Shown here in pieces: positions 1 to 9,576 of a DNA stretch of 9,576 bases (position 1 is the first letter of the stretch; every line of letters starts with the position of its first letter). Position numbers and translations under genes: made by a program. The notes below the pieces were generated by a model that had not been told where the DNA came from, searched no databases, and saw only the letters and a list, made by a program, of their open reading frames with translations. This stretch comes from a virus (taxonomy: Duplodnaviria > Heunggongvirae > Uroviricota > Caudoviricetes). The DNA is taken from the IMG/VR virus record IMGVR_UViG_2778261540_000002. The stretch is one strand, 5' to 3'.

Positions 1-3000
1 TGACGGTGTTTTCCGCGTTACCAGCAGCGTTAACGGTGATGGTGTGTCCATGTGAACCAATCGCAACGGAGTGCGTATGAGCACCAATACCGACAGTATG
101 CGCGTGTGCACCTGCAGATGCTGCTGTGCCGGACAGTGAATGGCTATGATTACCATCTGTACTGGTATTCGCTAACCACCCCGTAGACATACCTACTGAG
201 CCTTGTACACCCCAGGTATTTTGACCTGAGCTTGTATAACCATATTGATAAGTATCTTTAAAAACACTGGGGTTAAATCGACGGCCATCTCTATGGCTGT
301 GATTACCAGCTGCATTCGTGCTGCCACTTAAACTATGGGTATGCGCACCAGTGTTATTCGTGGATTTAGTGCCGTAATCAAACGACGATGTGGTTTTCGT
401 CCCCAAATCCGTACTGGATGCGCTGGCGCTGTGGGTGTGCGATTTAATGCCGTCCTGTTCCTGAGACAATACGGCCCGACCACTGGCAGGTTTGCCCTTA
501 ATCGTCCAGCCACGCATATCAGGGATCACGCCTGACGGATAAGCCGCTGCAAGTTTCGGGTATGCAGATTTGTCAAAAGCCTGCCCCTGCATCAGGGCAT
601 AGCCAGACGGAACGGTATCTGATGGCCACGGGATTGGTGCGCCGACTGGGTAGCTTTCTGGTGGAAGATTTTTCGAGGTATAAACTTCTGCCCAGTCTTC
701 CTCAAAACCATAACCGTCTCTTGAAGAACGGTAGAACAGACCACCATTTCTGTAATGCGCCTTCATCTGCAAGGTCCGGCAACTTCCGACTCCGGTATAG
801 AAGTTAACCAGAATATAGCTGTCGCCAGAGCGGGTGACATTATAAGCGCCTGATTCGGCATTCCAGGGAACGCCACCATCCGCATCGGCATATGTATCCG
901 TTGCCCTTCTGGCAAAAGCAGCCACATGCGCGGCGGTTAAAGTAATATCTTTGGAACCATCAAACTCAACACCAGAAACCCGTCTTGGCGTTTGCAGCTT
1001 TGTTGCTGTTAATGCATTACCGTTCAGACTTGCGGACAGTTTGGTTCCAATAACCAGTTCGCCGGTTGCGTTATCAATAGCAAACGGTCTTAATGTATTC
1101 CAGCCACCATAAACATCACCTTGATTGGTAAGCAGCAGGTAAGTTTTAGCGCCATCATTACGCCATAATGCCCCATACTCCCCACCTATCATTCGAATCT
1201 GATTACCACCACACGCTACAATTTCGTCTGTGGCAAAAAGTTTTTTGCACGACAAGTTATCGTTAACGATTAACGAATGAGACTCATAAAAACCACGCCC
1301 ACTCTTAAAATCAAGGATAACGTCCGCCGCGATACATTCAGTCGCCGGATTTGTTGCCCCAAACTTATAGGTCGTATCATTAACAACGAGATCAGCACCA
1401 GGTGCGGATATTGACAGGCCATCTTCGATAAACGCAAAAACAGGGAAAGCAGCGCCATCAACATAGAACACAGAGCGCAAATCATCGCCCTTATTACTCA
1501 TCATTATTGAGTGGATGGCTCGTTCATTGTTTTGATATTGCCAGAACATTCCATAAGCATAACGCCCCCTGTCAGTCCAGCCACCAGGCATAACAAATCC
1601 GTTAAACTCGCAGTTATTCATCGGATCGCCTGCGGTTCGCGTTGCCGTGGTGATAATGACCCTTGATGCCAGTTCGCTTACTGAGCCAGCAGAACGCATA
1701 ACAACAACAGGGTAATATTTTCCAGATGTTGCACCTGCAGGAGCGTTAACCCACACATAACGCATACCACGCTTATCAGCAAAGTCTGTTTTACTGACCG
1801 CGTTAATGTTGTTCAGGAAGCGTCCCTTATCGGGTATATCAGCGCCGTTCTGGTCTTTCTGCAGACGTTTCTCTGCATTGTCATAGGCTGATTTTACTGC
1901 CTTTGGCGTTGCCGCCAGCGTTTCAGACGTACTGTTGGTCGCACTGCTGAGCTGTACTATCCCCTTTTTCGTCGTACTTGCATCCTCAAGCGCCACGGCG
2001 GATGCAATATCCTCTGCCCGTTTTGCCGCTGTCTCGGCGCGCGTTGCCGCGGATTCCGCCGTACTTTTGCTCTGTGCTGCCGCCGTCGCACTGCCAGCTG
2101 CCTCTGTCGCCTTCGTGGATGCTGTCGTGGCGCTGCCCTTCGCTGCGGAAGCAGACCTCGCTGCTGCGCTGGCCTGTTCAGTGGCTTCGCCAGCCTTCGT
2201 TGTGGCTGTTGAAGCAGACGATGCGGCACTTTCTGCCGATTTTCCGGCGGCGGTGGCACTGGCTGAGGCCTGCCCGGCACTTGTTGACGCGGCACTGGCA
2301 GACGACGCAGCCGCTGTTGTTGAGCCTGCCGCAGCCGAGGCGCTCTGTCCCGCTGCCGTTTCAGAAGACCTGGCGTTTGTCTCAGACGTCTTTGCCGCCT
2401 TCGCGGAATTGCCTGCCGCCGTTGCCGAGGAAGCGGCACTACTGGCGCTTGATGATGCGTTCGTTTCTGATGATTTCGCTGCCTCTTTTGAGGCCGCCGC
2501 ATCCCGGGCTGAGGTGGCTGCTTCTGACGCCTTCGTGGTCGCGGCGGATGCAGAAGTGGCTGCTGATTGTTGTGACGCTGCCGCATTCGTTTCTGACGTT
2601 TTCGCCGCAGCGGCACTGGTAGCTGCCGCGCTTTTTGAGGACTCTGCAGCAGCAGCACTTTTCGATGCTTCACTGGCCTTTGTTGATGCCGTTCCTGCGC
2701 TGGAAGATGCTGACTGAGCCGACGACGCGGCCTGTCCGGCTGACGTGCTGGCTGCGCGTGCTGAGCCTGCAGCATCAGTCGCATGGGTTGCCGCCTCACG
2801 GGCTGATGTGCCGGCATCGCTGGCTGACTTCTTCGCGGCTGCCGTGTTCTGTGCCACCGCGGACGCGTTACGCGCCACCTCTTCCACCATCAGTTCAAAA
2901 CGGCGCAGTGCCTCAGGACGGGCATCATCCTCCGTCATGGCACCGAGAAAATCATTCAGCGTACCGGGTCGGGAATCTTCATACACGGTGATGGTCCCGG

Positions 3001-3214
3001 CATGTGACGGCGGGAATCCCTCCACCAACAGAATAACGCTGTACTGCCCGTACTCAACGTCCATGCTGTAACGCCCGGCTTCATCCGGATTTTCTGAGGC
3101 CAGCGTGTTCACCACCACCGTGGTGCTGTTACGTTTTGCTTTCAGCTGGATTGTGCAGTTCTGTACCGGTTTTCCTGTGCCGTCTTTCAGTACACCTGAA
3201 ATCTTTACTGCCAT
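1..3214 (-). CDS. stf: Side tail fibre protein, StfR/lambda Stf-like; 3' end truncated by the window edge (about 1071 codons in window, stop codon lies beyond position 1)
   Basis: ATG at 3214-3212 preceded by GGGGTG. My translation begins [81 protein letters not shown], the conserved lambda Stf N-terminal domain. Spot translations at 1801-1920 ([39 protein letters not shown]), 1441-1500 ([22 protein letters not shown]), 601-720 ([34 protein letters not shown]) and 1-360 (HxH-rich end ...[19 protein letters not shown]) stay in one frame. The ORF track lists no complete minus-strand ORF in this frame below 3214, consistent with one open frame running off the edge. Confidence 0.9.
1930..2870 (-). 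repeat. Low-complexity Ala/Ser/Thr-rich coding repeats forming the fibre shaft (motifs such as [30 protein letters not shown]), GC-rich
   Basis: Direct translation of the stf frame. At DNA level, near-repeats are visible, e.g. gtctcagacgtctttgccgcc (about 2380), gtttctgatgatttcgctgcc (about 2462) and gtttctgacgttttcgccgcagc (about 2590). This region produces the long Ala-rich and Arg/Gln/Pro-rich alternate-frame ORFs in the track. Boundaries are approximate. Confidence 0.6.
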
Positions 3215-3223
3215 ATTCACCCC

Positions 3224-3252
3224 ACAAAAAAGCCCGCCTGAACCGGCGGGCT
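3224..3252 (-). terminator. Putative rho-independent terminator downstream of lom: 8-bp GC-rich stem, 6-nt loop, then a run of 6 U on the minus-strand transcript
   Basis: Plus strand 3231-3238 agcccgcc and 3245-3252 ggcgggct are perfect reverse complements with loop tgaacc; an A-run at 3226-3231 on plus is the U-tract on minus. It sits between the lom stop (3279-3281) and the stf start (3214). Confidence 0.6.
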
Positions 3253-3278
3253 GTCATAACACTGTGTTACCTGGCTAA

Positions 3279-3878
3279 TCAGAATTTATAACCGACACCC
3301 ACGATGAAACCGTCAGTGCGCCAGTCACCACTGCCGGAGCCTTCATAAGCAATATCAATGGCCACGGATTCGGTCGGGTTAAACTGCACGCCAGCCCCCC
3401 ACGCCAGAGACGTGTTGCTGTGGCGACCGTCATCACTTCCGGTCAGCACATCGTGCTTTTTCCCCTTGTTGTCAGTTACGCGAAGATAATCCCCGGAGAA
3501 AGTCGACACACGGCTGTAAGCTACACCCGCCATCGCATACGCGCTGAACCATTCATTCACGCGCACAGACGGCCCCGCCATTACGCTGAACCAGCGGTTA
3601 CGAACGGAATCTTCATGCCAGCGGGTATCGCTGTAACGGGTCAGCTGGCGATTCTTGTCTCCTGCATAGCTGAATGACGTCACCAGCCCCAGTGTGTCCG
3701 TAAACTCATAACGGTATTTCACGTTAATCCCGTTCAGATCATCACTGCCGGGGACGTTCGTCGAGGCATGAAGATACCCCGCGCTCAGCGTGGACTGATG
3801 TTCAGACGCCCATGCAGGCGCACCGGATACGGCCAGACAAATGGCTGCGGACAAAATTGCTGCACAAACTTTACGCAT
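3279..3878 (-). CDS. lom: Outer-membrane beta-barrel protein of the Ail/Lom/PagC/OmpX family (Lom homologue), 199 aa, with N-terminal signal peptide
   Basis: ORF with ATG at 3878-3876 preceded by AGAGG. N-terminus MRKVCAAILSAAICLAVSGAPAWA is a signal peptide with an AxA cleavage site. C-terminus ...IAYEGSGSGDWRTDGFIVGVGYKF ends in an aromatic residue typical of outer-membrane barrels and matches my recollection of the lambda Lom C-terminus. Position immediately downstream of J is as in lambda. Confidence 0.9.
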   Translation of the reverse strand: MRKVCAAILSAAICLAVSGAPAWASEHQSTLSAGYLHASTNVPGSDDLNGINVKYRYEFTDTLGLVTSFSYAGDKNRQLTRYSDTRWHEDSVRNRWFSVMAGPSVRVNEWFSAYAMAGVAYSRVSTFSGDYLRVTDNKGKKHDVLTGSDDGRHSNTSLAWGAGVQFNPTESVAIDIAYEGSGSGDWRTDGFIVGVGYKF

Positions 3879-3948: not shown

Positions 3949-6900
3949 TCAACGAATACTGATGCCGGAAGCGGCTTTTTTGGTCACAATCACCGTACAG
4001 TCGGTGATATTGCCTGCCCCCTGATTGCCTTTCTGGAAAATCTTAAACTCCAGAGTGACGCTTCCCCTGCCACTCGGCATATCAATAACTGCACTGTAAC
4101 TACCGGGAATGGCCCCTTTAGTTTCTCTGGATGCGATTAATACGCCGTTTTTGCGAACTTCAAAACCATAACCCGTGTATCGCGTGCCTCCTGGGTTATT
4201 TCCGCTCCCCGGATCGTCATACGCTATACCGTTAAAAATAATGGGCGGAATAATAATCTGGCGGTCAAAGTTATGATCATCGCTGATGGTGACTGTAACC
4301 GTACCGTTTGGTGTTTCCGTGTTACCCCACGTACCGACTTTTTTCGGGAAGGCTTTTGATACAGCTTTAACGAAATCTCCTCTGACCTGGGTCGCCTCCA
4401 GCATGCCCTTAATCGTACAGTTCTGGTTAATCGTGACATTGTTGAGCGTTCCTGAGTTCGCATTCACACTGCCACTGATATCCGCATTTTTCGCCGTCAG
4501 TCTCCCGTCTGATGTCAGGGAAAATGCCGGAGGATTACCGCCGCTGGTAATGGTGGGGGCCGTCAGGCGTTTCAGGAACACTTCATTCATGAATATCTGA
4601 TCGCCCTGACCAACAAACATCGGCTTTGTGTTGCCATTCGCAGGATTAATCATCGCAATCCTGTCTGCTGCCAGCAGCACCTGACTCTGCATGCCGTCAG
4701 GGGTGTTCTCAATACCGGCACCGATACCCGCAATATAAAGGCGTCCGTCCTGCATCTGCTGCAGCTTCACTGCCCACATGCTGTTCAGGTTATTATTTGT
4801 ATCAACCTGAACCTTCTGTATCTGCTGGATCGCTGCACTCTGGTCTTCCAGTTTCTTATTGACGGTCTGTGTTATTTCATTGCTGACATCCGTTATGGAC
4901 GTCCTGATTTCAGTCAGGTCAGGCGCAAGCTGACCGTTATCAATCTGCGTCCACAGCTCCTGAGCCAGATGGGTTTTCCCTATCTCGCCTTTGAAAAAAT
5001 CCAGATAGCCTGATGCATCATCACTCGGCTGACCGACAGCCTCCACGAATGCCGATTTGCCAACGGTGTTCACACTGCGAACGTAAAAATAATAATCATG
5101 GCCCGGTTTGATATTGATACTGGCGGCTATCCAGTACAGTGCCGTACCAAGATAACGCGCGCTGGTTTCAACCTGCCTGATATCCGCAATCCGTTTTTCC
5201 GAGAACCAGAACTCAAACTGTACCGTCGGGTCATAAACCGCAAGATGCGGCGTGGCGGTTATCTGAAAATAGCCCGGCGTCAGCTCAATCCGCGACGGCG
5301 CTGCCGGTGCGGCAATCCGGAACGATACCGACGCCGGATCGCCCTGCTGCCCCCACGCATTTACTGCCCGGACTGTCAGCCTGTAGTTCCCCAGAGCCAG
5401 TTGTGTGAAGCGGTAAGTGGTTTCCGTCGTCCGGGCCGTGCTGACCAGCCGCTCACGGCCGTCATCCGCTGCCACGGTCAGGCGAAGCAGGAAGCTCACG
5501 CCCTTCACCACCTTCGGCGTGTCCCAGCGCGCCAGCACCTGGTATTCCCCGCTGTCTGCGGTGACTTCTGCGGTCAGGTGCTGCACCGCTGGCGGCGTGA
5601 CACCATTTACCGTGCCGCTCTGGTCGCCGTCAAAGTGCGCCCCGTTATCCACGATGGCCTCTTTTTCCGGTACATGCTGCACGGCGGTGATGGCATACGT
5701 GCCGTCGTCGTTCTCACGGATACTCACGCAGCGGAACAGGCGCTGGCGCAACGTCGGCAGCTTCAGCCCCCATACGCTGTATTCAGCAACGCCGTCAGGA
5801 ACACGGCTCACTTTCACCTTCACGCCGTCGGTGACGGACTGAACCTCCACGCTGACCGGACTCCCCTGCCCGTCAACCAGGCTTATCAGCGTGGTGCCGG
5901 AAGATGGCAGCGTGATTTCACGGTCGAGCGTCAGCGTCCGGGTCTGGCTGTTTACCGCCAGCACGCGCCCGCCGGTGCGGATACCGGCATAGTCATCATC
6001 GCAGATTTCAATGACATCGCCCGGTACATGGCGAAGCCCTTCGGCACCCACGCTGAAGTCCACGGTCTGCGTTTCCAGCAGTTCTGTTTTAATCAGCCAC
6101 AGCCCGGCGCGGTGTGCCTGCCCCCGGCTGGTACAGCCAAAAGCATCCATCTTCGTGACGTTACGACCGTAACGGGCAATGGCCTGCGTGTCCTCCACAA
6201 GCTCTGTCGCCGTCTCCCAGCCGTTATTCGGGTCAATCCAGTTCACCTCAACGGCATTATGGCGGTCCTTCAGGGCGCTGAAGCTGTAGCGGAACGGCGC
6301 ACCATCATCCGGCATCACCACATTACTGCGGTTATAGGTCCACACCTTATCCGACGGTCGGTCCTGCACGAACGTCAGCGTCTGCCCGTTCCATACCGGC
6401 ATACAGCGCATCGCAGAGCAGAAATCACTGAGCACATCCCACGCCTTGCGCTGTGTGGTCAGGTACGCATTACAGGTGATGCGCGGCTCCGTGCCGCCAA
6501 AACCGTCCGGCACCGACTGATCGCAATGCTGGCCGATGACATACAGCGCCCATTTGTCCACATCCGCCGCACCAAGACGTTTCCCCATGCCGTAGCGCGG
6601 ATGGGTCAGCATATCCCACAGACACCAGGCCATGTTGTTGCTGTATGCTGGCTTAAACGTTCCGTCCCAGATACCGCTGTATTGCCGCGTCTGCGGGTTA
6701 TAGTTCGACGGCACCTGCAGAATGCGCCCGCGCAGATGATAATTACGGCTCACCTGCTGGCTGCCGAACTGCTCCGAATCCACCTGCACGCCGACCAGTG
6801 CCGTGTTCGGGTAGCACTGTTTCACATCGATGATTTCGGTGTATGACGACCAGAGCGTTTTGTTCTGCAGCTGGTCTGTGGTGCTGTCCGGCGTCATCCT

Positions 6901-7446
6901 GCGCATCCGTATATTGAACGGGCGCGGCGGCAGGTTACCCACCACCACCGAGGCCAGATACTGCGAGGTGGTTTTGCCCTTAATGGTGATGTCTTTTTCC
7001 GTCACCCAGCCACCATTACGCTGGATCTGAACCAGCAGGCGGACTTCCGACGGATTCCGGTCCCCCTTTGAGGTGGTTTCCACCAGTGCCTGCACGCCGA
7101 AGGTAAAGCGCAGACGGTCGATGTTTGCAGACGTAATGGTGCGGGTGATCGGCGTGTCATATTTCACTTCCGTACCCAGCACCGTCTCGGAGCCGGAGGA
7201 TTCAAACCCCTCCGGCGGTGTCTGCTCCTGCTCACCGGCACGGAACACCACCGTGACACCGGAGATGTTGGTATTCCCCTCAGTGTCCAGCACCGGCGTA
7301 CTGTTCAGCAGCACGCTTTTTAATCCATCCACCGGACCTTCAACCGGCCCTTCGCTGATGGCATCGATCACACTCAGCAGCTGCGTGGACTTCAGGTTGT
7401 CCTTCGCTTCGCGCGGGGTATGCCCCTTACTGCTGCCTTTACCCAT
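3949..7446 (-). CDS. J: Tail tip / central tail fibre host-specificity protein J (lambda gpJ homologue), 1165 aa
   Basis: Complete 1165-aa ORF. N-terminus [34 protein letters not shown]... and most of the first 800 or so residues match lambda J as I recall it. GGAG lies 8 nt upstream of the ATG. Gene order I then J then lom is conserved with lambda. Confidence 0.95.
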
Positions 7447-7506: not shown

Positions 7507-8178
7507 TCAGCGACCAATCACCACAACCTGACCACCGTCCCCTTCGTCTGCCGTGCTGATCTCCTGAGAAACCACGCGAGACCCCACGCGCATTTCCCCG
7601 TACAGAACAGGCAGAACATTGCCCTGGGCAACCATGTTATCCAGTGAGGAGAAATAGGTGTTCTGCTTACCGTTATCCGTTGTCTGTGTACGGGGAGTTC
7701 TGGCTTTCGGTGCCAGCATCTGCGCCACACCACCGAGCACCATACTGGCACCGAGAGAAAACAGGATGCCGGTCATACCACCGGTCCCAATGGCTGCCCC
7801 CCATGCTGCAAGGGTGGCTCCGGCGGTAAAGAATGATCCGGCAATGGCGGCAGCCCCCAGGACAATCTGGAATACGCCACCTGACTTGGCCCCGGCGACT
7901 CTGGGAACAATATGAATCACAGCGCCATCAGGCAGAGTCTCATGTAACTGCGCCGTTAACCCGGACGTGCTGACGTCCCGCCCGGCAATCCGTACCTGAT
8001 ACCAGCCGTCGCTCAGTTTCTGACGAAACGCCGGGAGCTGTGTGGCCAGTGCCCGGATGGCTTCAGCCCCCGTTTTCACACGAAGGTCGATGCGGCGACC
8101 AAATCGTTGTAAATCCCCGTAAAGGCAGATGCGCGCCATGCCCGGTGACGCCAGAGGGAGTGTGTGCGTCGCTGCCAT
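7507..8178 (-). CDS. I: Tail assembly protein I (lambda gpI homologue), 223 aa
   Basis: 223-aa ORF, the same length as lambda I as I recall it. Begins MAATHTLPLASPGMARICLYGDLQRFGRRIDLRV. Contains a long Gly/Ala-rich hydrophobic segment (GGVFQIVLGAAAIAGSFFTAGATLAAWGAAIGTGGMTGILFSLGASMVLGG). Overlaps the 3' end of K by 103 bp in another frame, as in lambda. Confidence 0.9.
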   Translation of the reverse strand: MAATHTLPLASPGMARICLYGDLQRFGRRIDLRVKTGAEAIRALATQLPAFRQKLSDGWYQVRIAGRDVSTSGLTAQLHETLPDGAVIHIVPRVAGAKSGGVFQIVLGAAAIAGSFFTAGATLAAWGAAIGTGGMTGILFSLGASMVLGGVAQMLAPKARTPRTQTTDNGKQNTYFSSLDNMVAQGNVLPVLYGEMRVGSRVVSQEISTADEGDGGQVVVIGR

Positions 8179-8819
8179 TTGTCGGTGTACCTCTCTCGTT
8201 TGCTCAGTTGTTCAGGAATATGGTGCAGCAGCTCGCCGTCGCCGCAGTAAATTGCGGCGTGATTCGGCACCGATGAACCAAAACAGCACAGCAGCACATC
8301 GCCCGGCTGTGCCGCTGACAACGGCACCTGATACAGCCCCGTCGCCTCCAGATTATCCAGATAGAGATTCTGGCCGTTACGCCACCAGTCATCCTCACGA
8401 TAAAAGTCCGGCATCTCAATCCCCGCCAGATGATAAGCATCCCGGAACAGTGTGTAACAGTCCGTCACACCGTGCTCAAAGCGCCGCCCGGTGAGATGCG
8501 GCACACAGCGGAACTTATGAATCGTCCCCCGGCAGACCAGCCACCACGGCAAATCACTCTGCACCTGCAGCCGCCGGTCGGCCTCACTCAGCCAGGGCAG
8601 ACCACCGGGGTGGCTGTGGACCAGCGCCACAATCTCACCCTGCATTTCTGCCTGCAGCCAGTCTTCCGGCGACATACGGAAATACGCCTCCGGCTCACCG
8701 GAGATATTCACGCAGGGAAAATATCTTTCCCCCTCCGGCGTGCTTACCACGAAGCCGCACGACTCCGCTGGCGCACATCGCCGGGCGTGCGCCAGAATCG
8801 CTGATTCTGTCTGTGTCAT
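8076..8819 (-). CDS. K: Tail assembly protein K (lambda gpK homologue) with a JAMM/MPN+ metalloprotease motif and a C-terminal NlpC/P60-like Cys/His region. Maximal ORF is 247 aa; the internal ATG at 8675 would give the 199-aa form I recall as the classical lambda annotation
   Basis: ORF MTQTESAILAHARRCAPAESCGFVVSTPEGERYF... HSHPGGLPWLSEAD fits the JAMM signature HxH-x7-S-xx-D. The downstream GVTDCYTLFRDAYH ... HHIPEQ provides candidate catalytic Cys and His. ATG at 8819 lies 5 nt after the L stop codon with only a weak SD; the internal ATG at 8675 has GGAGG 11 nt upstream. Confidence 0.85.
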   Translation of the reverse strand: MTQTESAILAHARRCAPAESCGFVVSTPEGERYFPCVNISGEPEAYFRMSPEDWLQAEMQGEIVALVHSHPGGLPWLSEADRRLQVQSDLPWWLVCRGTIHKFRCVPHLTGRRFEHGVTDCYTLFRDAYHLAGIEMPDFYREDDWWRNGQNLYLDNLEATGLYQVPLSAAQPGDVLLCCFGSSVPNHAAIYCGDGELLHHIPEQLSKRERYTDKWQRRTHSLWRHRAWRASAFTGIYNDLVAASTFV

Positions 8820-8824
8820 GGGAT

Positions 8825-9559
8825 TTACTGCGAAAGTTTGTTAATGGAAAGGAAGCCGCCAAAGTTGCCGACGTTATTGCGGAACTTACAACCGCTCAGG
8901 CATTTGCTGCATTTATCCTTCGTGATATCGGACGTTGGCTGGTCATATTCATCCGCGACAGCCGGACCGCTATAACCGCACTCGTCACCGCGATAGGTCC
9001 AGGTGCAGGTGTTGGCCAGCATGATACGTCCCGGAAAAACAGCGCCATCCGTTTCCGTCGGCGTGGACAGTACAAAGGAGGCACTCACCGCGCTCAGTTC
9101 GCTGCACTGCTCAATGCGCCAGCGGCTGATCACCTCCTGCTCCGGATCGGCGTAACTGTTTCCGTTGACGAAGTTCACCGCATCCAGAAAACGGGCGTAA
9201 ACCTTACGCCGGACCACCGTTCCGCCGACCAGACTCTGCATATCTTCCGCCATCCCGGTGACCATACCGTACAGGTTAGAAACCGTCAGCGTGGGGCGCG
9301 TACTGGTGCCTTTGCCATTCAGTTCAAAACCGCTCCCCTGAATGGGATACGGCTGATACTGTCGCCCCTGCCAGGTGACCGGCTCACCTTTTTCGTTCTG
9401 CTCATTACAGAAAAAATAACGTTCTCCACCGACCTCTGTCAGGTCGATTTCCCAGAGCACCACGCTGGCCGACTGCTCCGCACGGGTGCATTCATTCAGT
9501 GTTTCCTGCCGGATATCCGTATCCTGAGCCGTCTGCAGGTTCAGTGAGTCCCCCGGCAT
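8825..9559 (-). CDS. L: Tail tip protein L (lambda gpL homologue), about 244 aa from the ATG at 9559; C-terminal Cys cluster
   Basis: Translation ...DIRQETLNECTRAEQSASVVLWEIDLTEVGGERYFFCNEQNEKGEPVTWQGRQYQPYPIQGSGFELNGKG... matches lambda L as I recall it. The track's ORF begins at a GTG (9571) shown as M; the first ATG is at 9559-9557 and overlaps a TGA stop of the upstream frame (ATGA), as at the lambda M/L junction. C-terminus carries four Cys (GDECGY, DKCSKCLSGCKF). Confidence 0.85.
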   Translation of the reverse strand: MPGDSLNLQTAQDTDIRQETLNECTRAEQSASVVLWEIDLTEVGGERYFFCNEQNEKGEPVTWQGRQYQPYPIQGSGFELNGKGTSTRPTLTVSNLYGMVTGMAEDMQSLVGGTVVRRKVYARFLDAVNFVNGNSYADPEQEVISRWRIEQCSELSAVSASFVLSTPTETDGAVFPGRIMLANTCTWTYRGDECGYSGPAVADEYDQPTSDITKDKCSKCLSGCKFRNNVGNFGGFLSINKLSQ

Positions 9560-9576
9560 CAGGTGCGGCACTTTTG
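9559..9576 (-). CDS. M: Last five codons plus stop of the upstream tail gene (M-like by synteny); 5' part lies outside the window
   Basis: Minus-strand reading of 9576-9559 gives Q K C R T then TGA, with the stop overlapping the L ATG. Identity as M is by position only. Confidence 0.4.
   Translation of the reverse strand, partial: QKCRT

What the first reader, a model, noticed from the sequence alone, without database searches (positions are those of the whole stretch)
8076..8819. K start is ambiguous; the long form carries a full JAMM motif plus an NlpC/P60-like region; 103-bp out-of-frame overlap with I
The maximal ORF (247 aa) starts 5 nt after the L stop and has a weak SD, suggesting translational coupling. 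The internal ATG at 8675 has GGAGG upstream and gives the 199-aa form that I recall as the classical lambda K annotation. The HxH-x7-S-xx-D motif sits just downstream of that internal start, so the extra 48 N-terminal residues may be needed for a complete JAMM fold. The 3' 103 bp of K (8076-8178) also encode the N-terminus of I in another frame.
Basis: partly seen in the sequence, partly recalled or inferred. Interest (0 to 1): 0.4.

Follow-up and report, generated by a model that had tools for sequence, protein, structure and literature searches.

The report
Lambda tail gene K, full-length form
Tail-assembly gene K of this lambda-like prophage encodes the 247-residue, two-protease protein, and the textbook 199-residue version traces to one G missing from the 1982 lambda reference sequence, so the finding is correct but describes a known protein family.

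Summary
On the minus strand a 247-codon ORF (8819..8076) starts 5 nt after the L stop. It contains an internal ATG at 8675 preceded by GGAGG, and its last 103 nt overlap gene I out of frame.

The start-site ambiguity has a simple cause. The reference lambda record J02459/NC_001416 lacks one G (window 8685, after lambda position 14266). That breaks the long ORF, so ATG 14276 (199 aa) was the only start left. Every independent lambda sequence examined has the G.

The long form is the real protein:
- Pfam Prok-JAB covers residues 3-104. The short form falls below threshold.
- The catalytic Glu (E19, in the P-x-E-x-C-G motif) lies in the extra 48 residues.
- Codons 2-48 are under purifying selection (dN/dS 0.26).
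- The extra 48 residues are conserved in 93 distant homologues.
- Residue 49 is Met in only 12 of 94 aligned proteins.
- The AlphaFold model (pLDDT 97.5) matches archaeal JAMM1 plus MepS-type NlpC/P60.

The JAB+NlpC/P60 architecture was published in 2006, and RefSeq already annotates 247 aa in E. coli prophages. Two refinements follow. Amino-acid-level dual coding with I covers only the last 64 nt. The I start at 8178 is kept by a conserved SD embedded in K codons.

The parts
8076..8819 (-). Gene K, full-length ORF (247 aa including Met1; stop TGA 8078-8076)
   Evidence: One residue differs from corrected lambda K (Y140 vs H140). RefSeq PGAP annotates the same 744-nt CDS as WP_000194783.1.
8820..8827 (-). 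L stop codon TAA (8827-8825) plus 5-nt spacer ATCCC before the K ATG; inferred termination-reinitiation junction
   Evidence: The gap is 4-10 nt in 178 of 201 distinct junctions and overlapping (TGATG, ATGA; gaps -1, -4, -8) in 11 more. Median anti-SD dG is +0.7.
8508..8813 (-). JAB/JAMM (MPN+) metalloprotease domain, residues 3-104
   Evidence: Pfam PF14464: 52.3 bits, profile positions 3-112 of 114. PDB profile hits 2kks, 2kcq and 5lda start at profile position 3 or 16. Foldseek aligns 107-112 columns to PfJAMM1.
8676..8819 (-). The 48 N-terminal codons missing from the classical annotation (helix 3-15, strands 21-27 and 30-36)
   Evidence: dN/dS 0.26 against 0.23 for codons 49-104. Mean identity to 93 distant homologues is 0.34 against 0.37, with almost no gaps. 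pLDDT is 97-98.
8763..8765 (-). E19, predicted catalytic Glu of the JAMM motif (P17-x-E19-x-C21-G22)
   Evidence: E in 93 of 94 aligned proteins; G22 invariant; C21 in 88 of 94. Aligns with the E-x-C-G motif of solved JAMM proteins.
8577..8618 (-). H68-S-H70-x7-S78-x2-D81, zinc-binding part of the JAMM motif
   Evidence: H68, H70 and D81 are invariant; S78 is S or T in 94 of 94. Coordinates.
8673..8675 (-). Internal ATG (M49), the start of the classical 199-aa annotation; most likely just a hydrophobic core codon
   Evidence: ATG in 118 of 207 unique alleles, ATT/ATC/ATA/CTG in 89. Met in 12 of 94 aligned proteins, Ile in 59.
8687..8691 (-). GGAGG 11 nt upstream of the internal ATG; lies within codons P43-E44-A45
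   Evidence: dG -9.5. Present in 68 of 89 alleles whose codon 49 is not ATG.
8685..8685 (-). The G that is absent from J02459/NC_001416 (after lambda position 14266)
   Evidence: Without it the K frame has a TGA 6 codons upstream of ATG 14276, and the ORF from ATG 14133 ends after 76 aa.
8148..8489 (-). NlpC/P60 (C40) papain-like peptidase domain, residues 111-224, with C121, H187 and H199
   Evidence: Pfam PF00877, 48.3 bits. C121 and H187 are at least 90% conserved and H199 is invariant. Foldseek and HMM hits to MepS/Spr, LytE and Acd33800.
7507..8178 (-). Gene I (223 aa from ATG 8178); Ub-like beta-grasp domain at residues 14-97 (8139-7888)
   Evidence: Pfam PF06805, 99.9 bits, residues 14-97. 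Weak MoaD-family match.
8190..8195 (-). GAGAGG Shine-Dalgarno sequence for I, embedded in K codons E209-R210
   Evidence: dG -9.3. GAG in 203 of 207 alleles and the rare Arg codon AGG in 190 of 207.
8140..8178 (-). Overlap part A: I codons 1-13 over K codons 214-226; constrained by K only
   Evidence: K frame dN/dS 0.14 with pS 0.36, not reduced. I frame dN/dS 2.9.
8076..8139 (-). Overlap part B: I codons 14-34 (start of the Ub-like domain) over the K C-terminal helix (residues 227-247); dual coding at the amino-acid level
   Evidence: pS falls to 0.16 (K frame) and 0.18 (I frame), against 0.39-0.52 in the flanks. Relatives at 48-50% K identity overlap by 58 nt.

Best explanation
Gene K is translated from the ATG at 8819, 5 nt after the L stop. 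The product is a 247-residue protein with two peptidase domains. Residues 3-104 form a complete JAB/JAMM metalloprotease domain (E19, H68, H70, S78, D81). Residues 111-224 form an NlpC/P60 cysteine peptidase domain (C121, H187, H199).

The 199-residue K of the textbook lambda annotation is not a biological alternative. The 1982 reference sequence J02459 omits one G (window 8685). This frameshifts the first 48 codons, leaving ATG 14276 as the only usable start.

The following steps are inferred, not shown:
- The SD-less start is served by ribosomes terminating on L (termination-reinitiation).
- K acts as a non-structural assembly protease.
- Following Iyer et al. 2006, its JAMM domain clips the ubiquitin-like N-terminal domain off gpI near G96-G101, releasing the C-terminal plug that is the only part of gpI seen in virions.

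Gene I is initiated independently inside K at ATG 8178, from an SD kept intact by synonymous constraint on K.
For: Reference artefact:
- J02459 differs from the window by one missing G, 10 nt upstream of the internal ATG.
- In J02459 this puts a TGA 6 codons upstream of ATG 14276 and ends the upstream ORF after 76 aa.
- Lambda imm21, PV340536, KT232076, HK630 and at least 10 de novo lambda contigs in unrelated assemblies match J02459 with 0 mismatches over 2016 bp, but all carry the G.
- Of 305 loci, the only lambda-type copies with this frameshift are three that carry the J02459 sequence (J02459, NC_001416 and OR974322).

Domain:
- PF14464 scores 52.3 bits over residues 3-104 in the long form. 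The short form scores 23.3 bits, below the cutoff of 25, and matches only profile positions 63-112.
- A family profile aligns to solved JAMM proteins from position 3, including the E-x-C-G motif.
- The AF2 model has pLDDT 97.5, with residues 1-48 forming a helix and two strands.
- Foldseek aligns 107-112 columns to PfJAMM1, more than the 56 residues available after M49.

Evolution:
- 93 homologues at 35-60% identity conserve residues 1-48 as well as the rest of the JAB domain. E19 is conserved in 93 of 94 aligned proteins, and M49 is Met in only 12 of 94.
- dN/dS is 0.26 for codons 2-48.
- Codon 49 is not ATG in 89 of 207 alleles.
- GGAGG occurs independently of the ATG.

Junction:
- The K ATG lies 4-10 nt after the L stop, or overlaps it, in about 190 of 201 contexts and has no SD.

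Function:
- The JAB + NlpC/P60 + Ub-like gene neighbourhood and the predicted cleavage of I are described in PMC1779556.
- Only gpI residues 134/135-223 are seen in virions, and gpK is absent from them.
- The single gpI peptide found by virion MS (9.87% coverage) fits only the C-terminal tryptic peptide 202-223.
- There is precedent for a bacterial JAMM cleaving a Ubl fusion: DRJAMM cleaves MoaD-MoaE (PMC8832034 abstract).
Against: - The long start has no SD at all, whereas the internal ATG has a first-percentile SD match (-9.5 kcal/mol). Some internal initiation in this phage cannot be excluded.
- No ribosome-profiling or N-terminal protein data could be read.
- NlpC/P60-only versions of TAPK exist in some phages (PMC1779556), so a JAB-less product is not inconceivable.
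- Cleavage of gpI by K has never been shown. The absence of the gpI N-terminus from cryo-EM maps could simply reflect disorder.
- No paper was found that documents the 14266 omission. That it is a sequencing error rather than a clone-specific mutation is inferred from the other sequences.
Confidence: 0.9

Rival explanations
1. The functional product is the classical 199-aa protein started at ATG 8675 from the GGAGG site. On this view the upstream 144 nt are an untranslated or vestigial L-K spacer and the half JAB domain is a relic.
For: - Strong SD match (-9.5 kcal/mol) 11 nt upstream, the same spacing as the accepted I start.
- The lambda reference and several curated records annotate this form, even records that contain the G.
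- About a fifth of database gene calls use it (199-aa clusters P0058, P0060, P0065, P0066).
Against: - The annotation derives from a frameshifted reference.
- Codons 2-48 are under purifying selection in frame.
- The region is conserved, with an almost invariant catalytic Glu, in homologues down to 35% identity.
- Codon 49 is not ATG in 43% of alleles, and residue 49 is Ile in 59 of 94 aligned proteins.
- The short form fails the Pfam JAB threshold.
Confidence: 0.03
2. Both forms are made: K247 by coupling to L, and a nested in-frame K199 (NlpC/P60 with a JAB stub) from the internal SD+ATG. This would resemble the other nested in-frame lambda gene pairs (C/Nu3, S107/S105; recalled from general knowledge). 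The short form would have its own role in lambda-type phages.
For: - SD plus ATG are present together in 113 of 207 unique alleles.
- NlpC/P60-only TAPK genes exist elsewhere.
- Nothing in the sequence prevents internal initiation.
Against: - ATG49 is absent from 43% of close alleles and from most distant homologues.
- GGAGG is equally present where no ATG follows, so it is explained by the P-E-A codons.
- A product starting at M49 would lack helix 1 and two core strands of the JAB fold and would probably misfold there.
Confidence: 0.1
3. The missing G in J02459 is a real mutation of the sequenced cI857 S7 stock. That viable phage would then make only K199, so the JAB domain would be dispensable.
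For: Four records lack the G: J02459, NC_001416, OR974322 and OR474059.
Against: - NC_001416 is the same sequence as J02459.
- OR974322 matches the reference coordinate for coordinate and carries its annotation, which suggests reference-guided assembly.
- Every de novo lambda contig and every resequenced lambda derivative has the G, with 0 other differences over 2 kb.
- Strong purifying selection on the JAB half argues against dispensability.
Confidence: 0.04

Closest known systems
Bacteriophage lambda gpK / 'TAPK' family (Iyer, Burroughs & Aravind 2006, PMC1779556); RefSeq 'C40 family peptidase' WP_000194783.1
   Same: - One amino-acid difference from corrected lambda K.
- Same L-K-I-J synteny.
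- Same JAB + NlpC/P60 architecture.
- The same 247-aa CDS is annotated by PGAP.
- Sequence matching this query (K plus the L-K junction) is present in 4364 of 5426 complete E. coli genomes.
   Different: There is no biological difference. The only difference is from the lambda reference record, whose K is 199 aa because of the missing G.
Prokaryotic JAMM/MPN+ Ubl proteases (Pyrococcus furiosus JAMM1, PDB 5ld9/5lda; HvJAMM1; Deinococcus DRJAMM)
   Same: - Full E...HxH-x7-S-xx-D motif.
- Single-domain fold match: TM 0.68-0.69 normalised to the target, rmsd 2.5-2.7 A over 107-112 columns.
- A ThiS/MoaD-like beta-grasp protein is encoded next door.
   Different: - Fused to an NlpC/P60 domain.
- No E1-like partner is encoded alongside it in the tail-tip module (L, K, I, J, lom and stf-like ORFs only).
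- The presumed substrate is a Ubl domain fused in cis to a tail-tip plug domain.
- Activity is untested.
NlpC/P60 (C40) peptidases such as E. coli MepS/Spr, B. subtilis LytE and C. difficile Acd33800
   Same: - Pfam PF00877 above threshold.
- Conserved Cys-His-His residues.
- Fold matches.
   Different: - The protein is non-structural and absent from virions, so it is unlikely to be a cell-wall-degrading virion enzyme.
- Scores are far below the NCBIfam cutoffs for the named cell-wall hydrolase equivalogs.
- The substrate is unknown.

Membership tests
JAB/JAMM (MPN+) metalloprotease | Sequence motif E-x(n)-H-x-H-x7-S-x2-D | tested here: met
   E19, H68, H70, S78 and D81 are present. They are invariant or nearly so in 94 aligned proteins. 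The short form lacks E19.
JAB/JAMM (MPN+) metalloprotease | Curated family model matched above its gathering score over the whole domain | tested here: met
   PF14464: 52.3 bits against a cutoff of 25, profile positions 3-112 of 114. The 199-aa form scores 23.3 bits and fails.
JAB/JAMM (MPN+) metalloprotease | MPN fold (N-terminal helix plus a beta-sheet core carrying the Glu strand) | tested here: met
   AF2 model with pLDDT 97.5. Foldseek hits to PfJAMM1, AMSH, CSN5 and Rpn11. HMM alignment to 2kks, 2kcq and 5lda.
JAB/JAMM (MPN+) metalloprotease | Zn2+-dependent (iso)peptidase activity on a Ubl C-terminus | not testable with these tools
   This needs biochemistry. Only circumstantial support exists: the gpI N-terminal domain is not seen in virions.
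NlpC/P60 (C40) peptidase | Family model above threshold, with the catalytic Cys at a helix N-terminus plus His and a third polar residue | tested here: met
   PF00877: 48.3 bits against a cutoff of 23. C121 starts helix 121-131. C121 and H187 are at least 90% conserved and H199 is invariant.
NlpC/P60 (C40) peptidase | Peptidoglycan or peptide hydrolase activity | not testable with these tools
Scores against named hydrolase equivalogs are far below their cutoffs.
Lambda tail assembly protein K (TAPK) | Position between L and I in a lambda-type tail-tip module, with high identity to lambda K | tested here: met
   Gene order L-K-I-J-lom. The region is 99.6% identical at the nucleotide level to lambda. 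One amino-acid difference from corrected lambda K.
Nested in-frame gene pair (two products from one ORF) | Internal start codon and its SD conserved among relatives | tested here: not met
   Codon 49 is ATG in only 118 of 207 alleles, and residue 49 is Met in 12 of 94 aligned proteins. GGAGG is not linked to the ATG.

The most novel reading that the evidence does not exclude
Full-length K is an active two-headed assembly protease. Its JAMM head removes the ubiquitin-like domain of gpI near G96-G101, so that only the C-terminal membrane-active plug enters the tail tip. This would be an E1/E2-free Ubl 'pro-domain' system in virus morphogenesis. Its NlpC/P60 head might perform another of lambda's unassigned tail cleavages, for example gpH to gpH*, whose protease is stated to be unknown in PMC12617516. 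The truncated reference annotation would have kept the catalytic Glu out of sight of people working from NC_001416. The first part restates the 2006 Iyer et al. prediction, which is still untested. The gpH link is my speculation.
Probability: 0.3. Interest if true: 0.6.

Novelty: already known. Interest (0 to 1): 0.2.

Why it matters
The practical value is a correction to the reference. NC_001416/J02459 still lists a 199-residue K that lacks the first 48 residues, including the catalytic Glu of its JAMM protease domain. From memory, the UniProt entry derived from it does the same. Proteomic searches, structure predictions, mutagenesis designs and CRISPRi or essentiality maps built on that record work with a protein that probably does not exist.

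RefSeq prophage annotations have the opposite error. They give K correctly but truncate I to 190 aa, which removes the first strands of its ubiquitin-like domain.

Knowing the true ends of both proteins is a prerequisite for testing what gpK does. It is one of the few lambda morphogenetic proteins whose role is still unassigned. There is no conceptual novelty: the architecture and the proposed K-I relationship were published in 2006.

Tried and rejected
Literature:
- Searches for a published note on the 14266 omission, or on a 247-aa lambda K, found nothing relevant.
- The lambda ribosome-profiling paper (Liu et al. 2013) and the Casjens & Hendrix 2015 review are not in the held library, so no experimental start-site data could be used.
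- A search for later work on TAPK/TAPI biochemistry found only general JAMM papers.

Ideas considered and dropped:
- I considered treating ORF openness upstream of M49 as evidence. It is not informative, because 31% of ATGs in the window have at least 48 open codons upstream.
- I considered modelling a K-I complex using a database K-I fusion protein such as P0031. I did not run it. The fusions are frameshift joins, and the structure tool returns no coordinates, so docking of the I C-terminal glycines into the JAMM site could not have been checked.
- I first read the unconstrained I codons 1-13 as meaning that I starts at M14. I withdrew this because M14 has no SD (-2.5 kcal/mol). The M1 start has a strong SD, and that SD is preserved by synonymous constraint, including a rare AGG codon in K.
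Full report
What is in the window. The window carries a lambda-type tail-tip module on the minus strand:
- L, whose ORF ends at 8825.
- K (8819..8076).
- I (8178..7507).
- J (7446..3949, 1165 aa).
- lom (3878..3279).
- A long stf-like ORF that runs off the window start.
The L-K-I region is 99.6% identical to phage lambda and 100% identical to phiSTEC1575-Stx2k.

Check of the observation.
- TAA (8827-8825), then ATCCC, then ATG (8819). This opens a 247-codon ORF ending at TGA 8078-8076.
- An in-frame ATG lies at 8675, with GGAGG (8691-8687) 11 nt upstream.
- H68-x-H70-x7-S78-xx-D81 lies at 8618-8577.
- The I ORF starts at 8178, so K and I share 8076-8178 (103 nt) in different frames.
The lambda reference does annotate K as 199 aa (14276..14875). 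One detail needs correcting: the long start has no Shine-Dalgarno sequence rather than a weak one. Its anti-SD duplex energy is +0.7 kcal/mol, against -9.5 for the internal ATG and a window-wide mean of -3.3.

Why the start looked ambiguous. Aligning the window to J02459 shows a single indel. J02459 lacks one G, at window 8685, after lambda position 14266 and 10 nt upstream of the internal ATG. This has two consequences in J02459:
- The K reading frame has a TGA six codons upstream of ATG 14276.
- The ORF that begins at ATG 14133, 5 nt after the L stop, shifts frame and dies after 76 codons.
The 1982 annotators therefore had no choice but ATG 14276.

Over the 2016 bp from the L start to the I stop, many sequences show zero mismatches to J02459 but all contain the extra G. 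They are lambda imm21 (OM418625), PV340536, KT232076, HK630, and at least ten de novo assembled lambda contigs that contaminate unrelated bacterial genome assemblies. Among 305 loci collected, the only lambda-type copies with this frameshift are three that carry the J02459 sequence: J02459, NC_001416 and OR974322, which matches the reference coordinate for coordinate. I recall a vendor note listing a G insertion at 14266 relative to J02459. I could not find a paper documenting it, so this point rests on the sequence comparison.

Current annotations are inconsistent.
- Some records that contain the G still annotate 199 aa, with the GGAGG marked as the RBS. One annotates 211 aa.
- PV340536, phiSTEC1575 and RefSeq PGAP annotate 247 aa.
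- In the protein collection, 247-aa clusters dominate, but 199-aa clusters still hold thousands of members.

Domain boundaries.
- Pfam Prok-JAB (PF14464) matches residues 3-104 of the long form, covering profile positions 3-112 of 114 at 52.3 bits (cutoff 25). The 199-aa form matches only profile positions 63-112 at 23.3 bits and fails the threshold.
- NlpC/P60 (PF00877) covers residues 111-224 in either form.
- A profile built from 101 family members aligns with solved JAMM proteins (2kks, 2kcq, PfJAMM1 5ld9/5lda) from profile position 3 or 16. The alignment includes the P-x-E-x-C-G segment that carries the catalytic Glu.
The Glu is E19 (8765-8763), inside the disputed 48 residues.
- An AlphaFold2 model built on that alignment has mean pLDDT 97.5 and pTM 0.92. 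Residues 1-48 form helix 3-15 and strands 21-27 and 30-36.
- Foldseek against the PDB aligns 107-112 columns with PfJAMM1 (TM 0.68-0.69 normalised to the target, rmsd 2.5-2.7 A). That is about twice the 56 residues available between M49 and residue 104. The C-terminal half matches MepS/Spr, LytE and Acd33800.

Evolutionary tests.
- An exhaustive HMMER search found 2773 relatives.
- I aligned 93 full-length representatives at 35-60% identity with the window protein, giving 94 sequences. Residues 1-48 are as conserved as the rest of the JAB domain: mean identity to K is 0.34 against 0.37, with 2% gaps.
- In that alignment G22 is invariant, E19 is present in 93 of 94 sequences and C21 in 88 of 94. 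In the 101-sequence alignment P17 is at least 90% conserved.
- Position 49 is Ile in 59, Met in 12 and Leu in 12 of the 94.
- In 207 unique K alleles from 275 full-length loci, Nei-Gojobori dN/dS is 0.26 for codons 2-48, 0.23 for codons 49-104 and 0.15 for codons 105-213.
- Codon 49 is ATG in 118 alleles and ATT/ATC/ATA/CTG in 89.
- GGAGG is present in 68 of those 89 non-ATG alleles, so it follows from the Pro-Glu-Ala codons (CCG GAG GCG) rather than from selection for an internal start.

How the long form is probably initiated (inferred).
- The K ATG lies 4-10 nt after the L stop in 178 of 201 distinct junctions and overlaps it in 11 more.
- In relatives at 48-50% identity the junction is TGATG or ATGA.
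- SD complementarity is essentially absent: the median dG is +0.7, and only 1% of junctions reach -6 or lower.
- Synonymous diversity is lowest in codons 1-8.
This pattern fits termination-reinitiation from L. It is not direct evidence.

The K/I overlap. The ATG at 103-nt overlap is present in 197 of 214 unique loci. A second ATG, I M14, lies at 64-nt overlap. In relatives at 48-50% K identity the overlap is 58 nt. Splitting the overlap gives two different pictures.
- Part A is I codons 1-13 over K codons 214-226.
  - It evolves as K only. K-frame dN/dS is 0.14 and pS is 0.36, against 0.39 in K-only sequence.
  - I-frame dN/dS is 2.9.
- Part B is I codons 14-34 over K codons 227-247.
  - pS drops to 0.16-0.18 in both frames, against 0.39-0.52 in the flanks.
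  - This is the signature of real dual coding.
- Part B holds the first strands of the I ubiquitin-like domain (Pfam PF06805 starts at I residue 14). It also holds the K C-terminal helix, which is poorly conserved or absent in distant homologues.

The I start at 8178 is nevertheless probably real.
- It has a GAGAGG SD (-9.3 kcal/mol). M14 has none (-2.5 kcal/mol).
- The K codons forming that SD are frozen: GAG in 203 of 207 alleles and the rare Arg codon AGG in 190 of 207. The AAA of AAA-TGG, which creates the ATG, is present in 196 of 207.
- PGAP's 190-aa I, starting at GTG 8079, removes profile positions 2-25 of the Ub-like domain. The Pfam score drops from 99.9 to 68.8 bits.

Function.
- Iyer, Burroughs and Aravind (2006, PMC1779556) described TAPK as JAB + NlpC/P60 and TAPI as a ThiS/MoaD-like Ub-fold protein with a conserved C-terminal Gly. 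They predicted that the JAB domain releases the Ub-like domain of I.
- Both active sites are intact in the window protein.
- Two cryo-EM studies see only gpI residues 134/135-223 in the tail tip. They do not detect gpK in virions.
- The only gpI peptide found by virion MS covers 9.87% of 223 residues, that is 22 residues. This fits only the C-terminal tryptic peptide 202-223.
- These observations are compatible with removal of the Ub-like domain, but they do not show it. Disorder and low copy number are alternative explanations.
- DRJAMM cleaving a MoaD-MoaE fusion is a bacterial precedent (PMC8832034 abstract).

Verdict. A minor internal-start isoform in ATG49-bearing phages cannot be excluded (about 0.1). 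The protein, its architecture and its presumed partner are already known, and RefSeq already annotates the 247-aa form in E. coli genomes. DNA matching K and the L-K junction is present in 4364 of 5426 complete E. coli genomes. The useful outputs are the explanation of the 199-aa annotation as a one-base reference artefact, and the refined picture of the K/I overlap. Interest is low.

Noticed in passing
L010, L012, L013, L014, L016, L017, L018, L019, L020, L021 (genome-contig loci): Contigs in species-representative assemblies of unrelated bacteria are phage lambda DNA. The genera include Neobacillus, Pseudomonas, Chromatium, Paenibacillus, Shewanella, Desulfosporosinus, Bradyrhizobium and Leeuwenhoekiella. 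Each has 0 mismatches to J02459 over the aligned L-K-I region (2016 bp; 1669 bp for the truncated L018). These are presumably spike-in or reagent contamination left in public genomes.
   Followed up: partly
window 8077-8079 (GTG) versus 8176-8178 (ATG); L305 1722-2294: RefSeq PGAP and some GenBank lambda records start gene I at the GTG that overlaps the K stop, giving 190 aa. This removes the first ~24 profile positions of the ubiquitin-like domain: PF06805 drops from 99.9 to 68.8 bits. The classical 223-aa start keeps the whole domain.
   Followed up: yes
window 8190-8195 and 8176-8180: The SD for gene I (GAGAGG) is built from K codons E209-R210. The rare Arg codon AGG is kept in 190 of 207 alleles and GAG in 203 of 207. 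This is synonymous-site selection inside K for initiation of I, even though I residues 1-13 show no amino-acid constraint.
   Followed up: yes
window 2-3253, minus strand: One open frame of at least 1084 codons begins [17 protein letters not shown]... just downstream of lom and runs off the window start. It looks like an intact side-tail-fibre (stf-like) gene, unlike the frameshifted stf of laboratory lambda. The odd Ala/Asp-rich and Arg/Gln/Pro-rich ORFs listed at 1935-2889 are its off-frame shadows.
   Followed up: partly
window 9518-9576: Identity to lambda stops at window 9518, where the megablast match begins at query base 59. Upstream of this the 5' end of L and the end of M differ from lambda, so the L start in this phage is not the lambda one. 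The candidates are GTG 9571 and an ATG about 12 nt downstream of it.
   Followed up: no
P0031, P0079, P0012, P0116, P0071, P0091, P0113; P0019, P0035, P0042: The protein collection contains K-I and L-K 'fusion' proteins. The K-I ones join the two frames inside the overlap or carry further frameshifts, so they look like sequencing errors or pseudogenes rather than real fusions. Such entries may underlie the 'TAPI fused to JAB' architecture reported in 2006.
   Followed up: partly
L058, L059, L061 (E. coli ECMA0423, Shigella flexneri SFBU1023): These are degraded K copies with frameshifts or premature stops in cryptic prophages. They matched as several HSPs or as short ORFs.
   Followed up: no
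PMC10721106 S2 Table; lambda gpI residues 202-223: Virion mass spectrometry reported a single gpI peptide with 9.87% coverage. The only tryptic peptide of that length is the C-terminal VVSQEISTADEGDGGQVVVIGR. No peptide from the ubiquitin-like half of gpI was detected.
   Followed up: partly
window 3949-7446: J is 1165 aa here, against 1132 aa in lambda. The receptor-binding end therefore differs from lambda J. It matches the phiSTEC1575-Stx2k type, whose J CDS has the same length (38568-42065 in that record).
   Followed up: no
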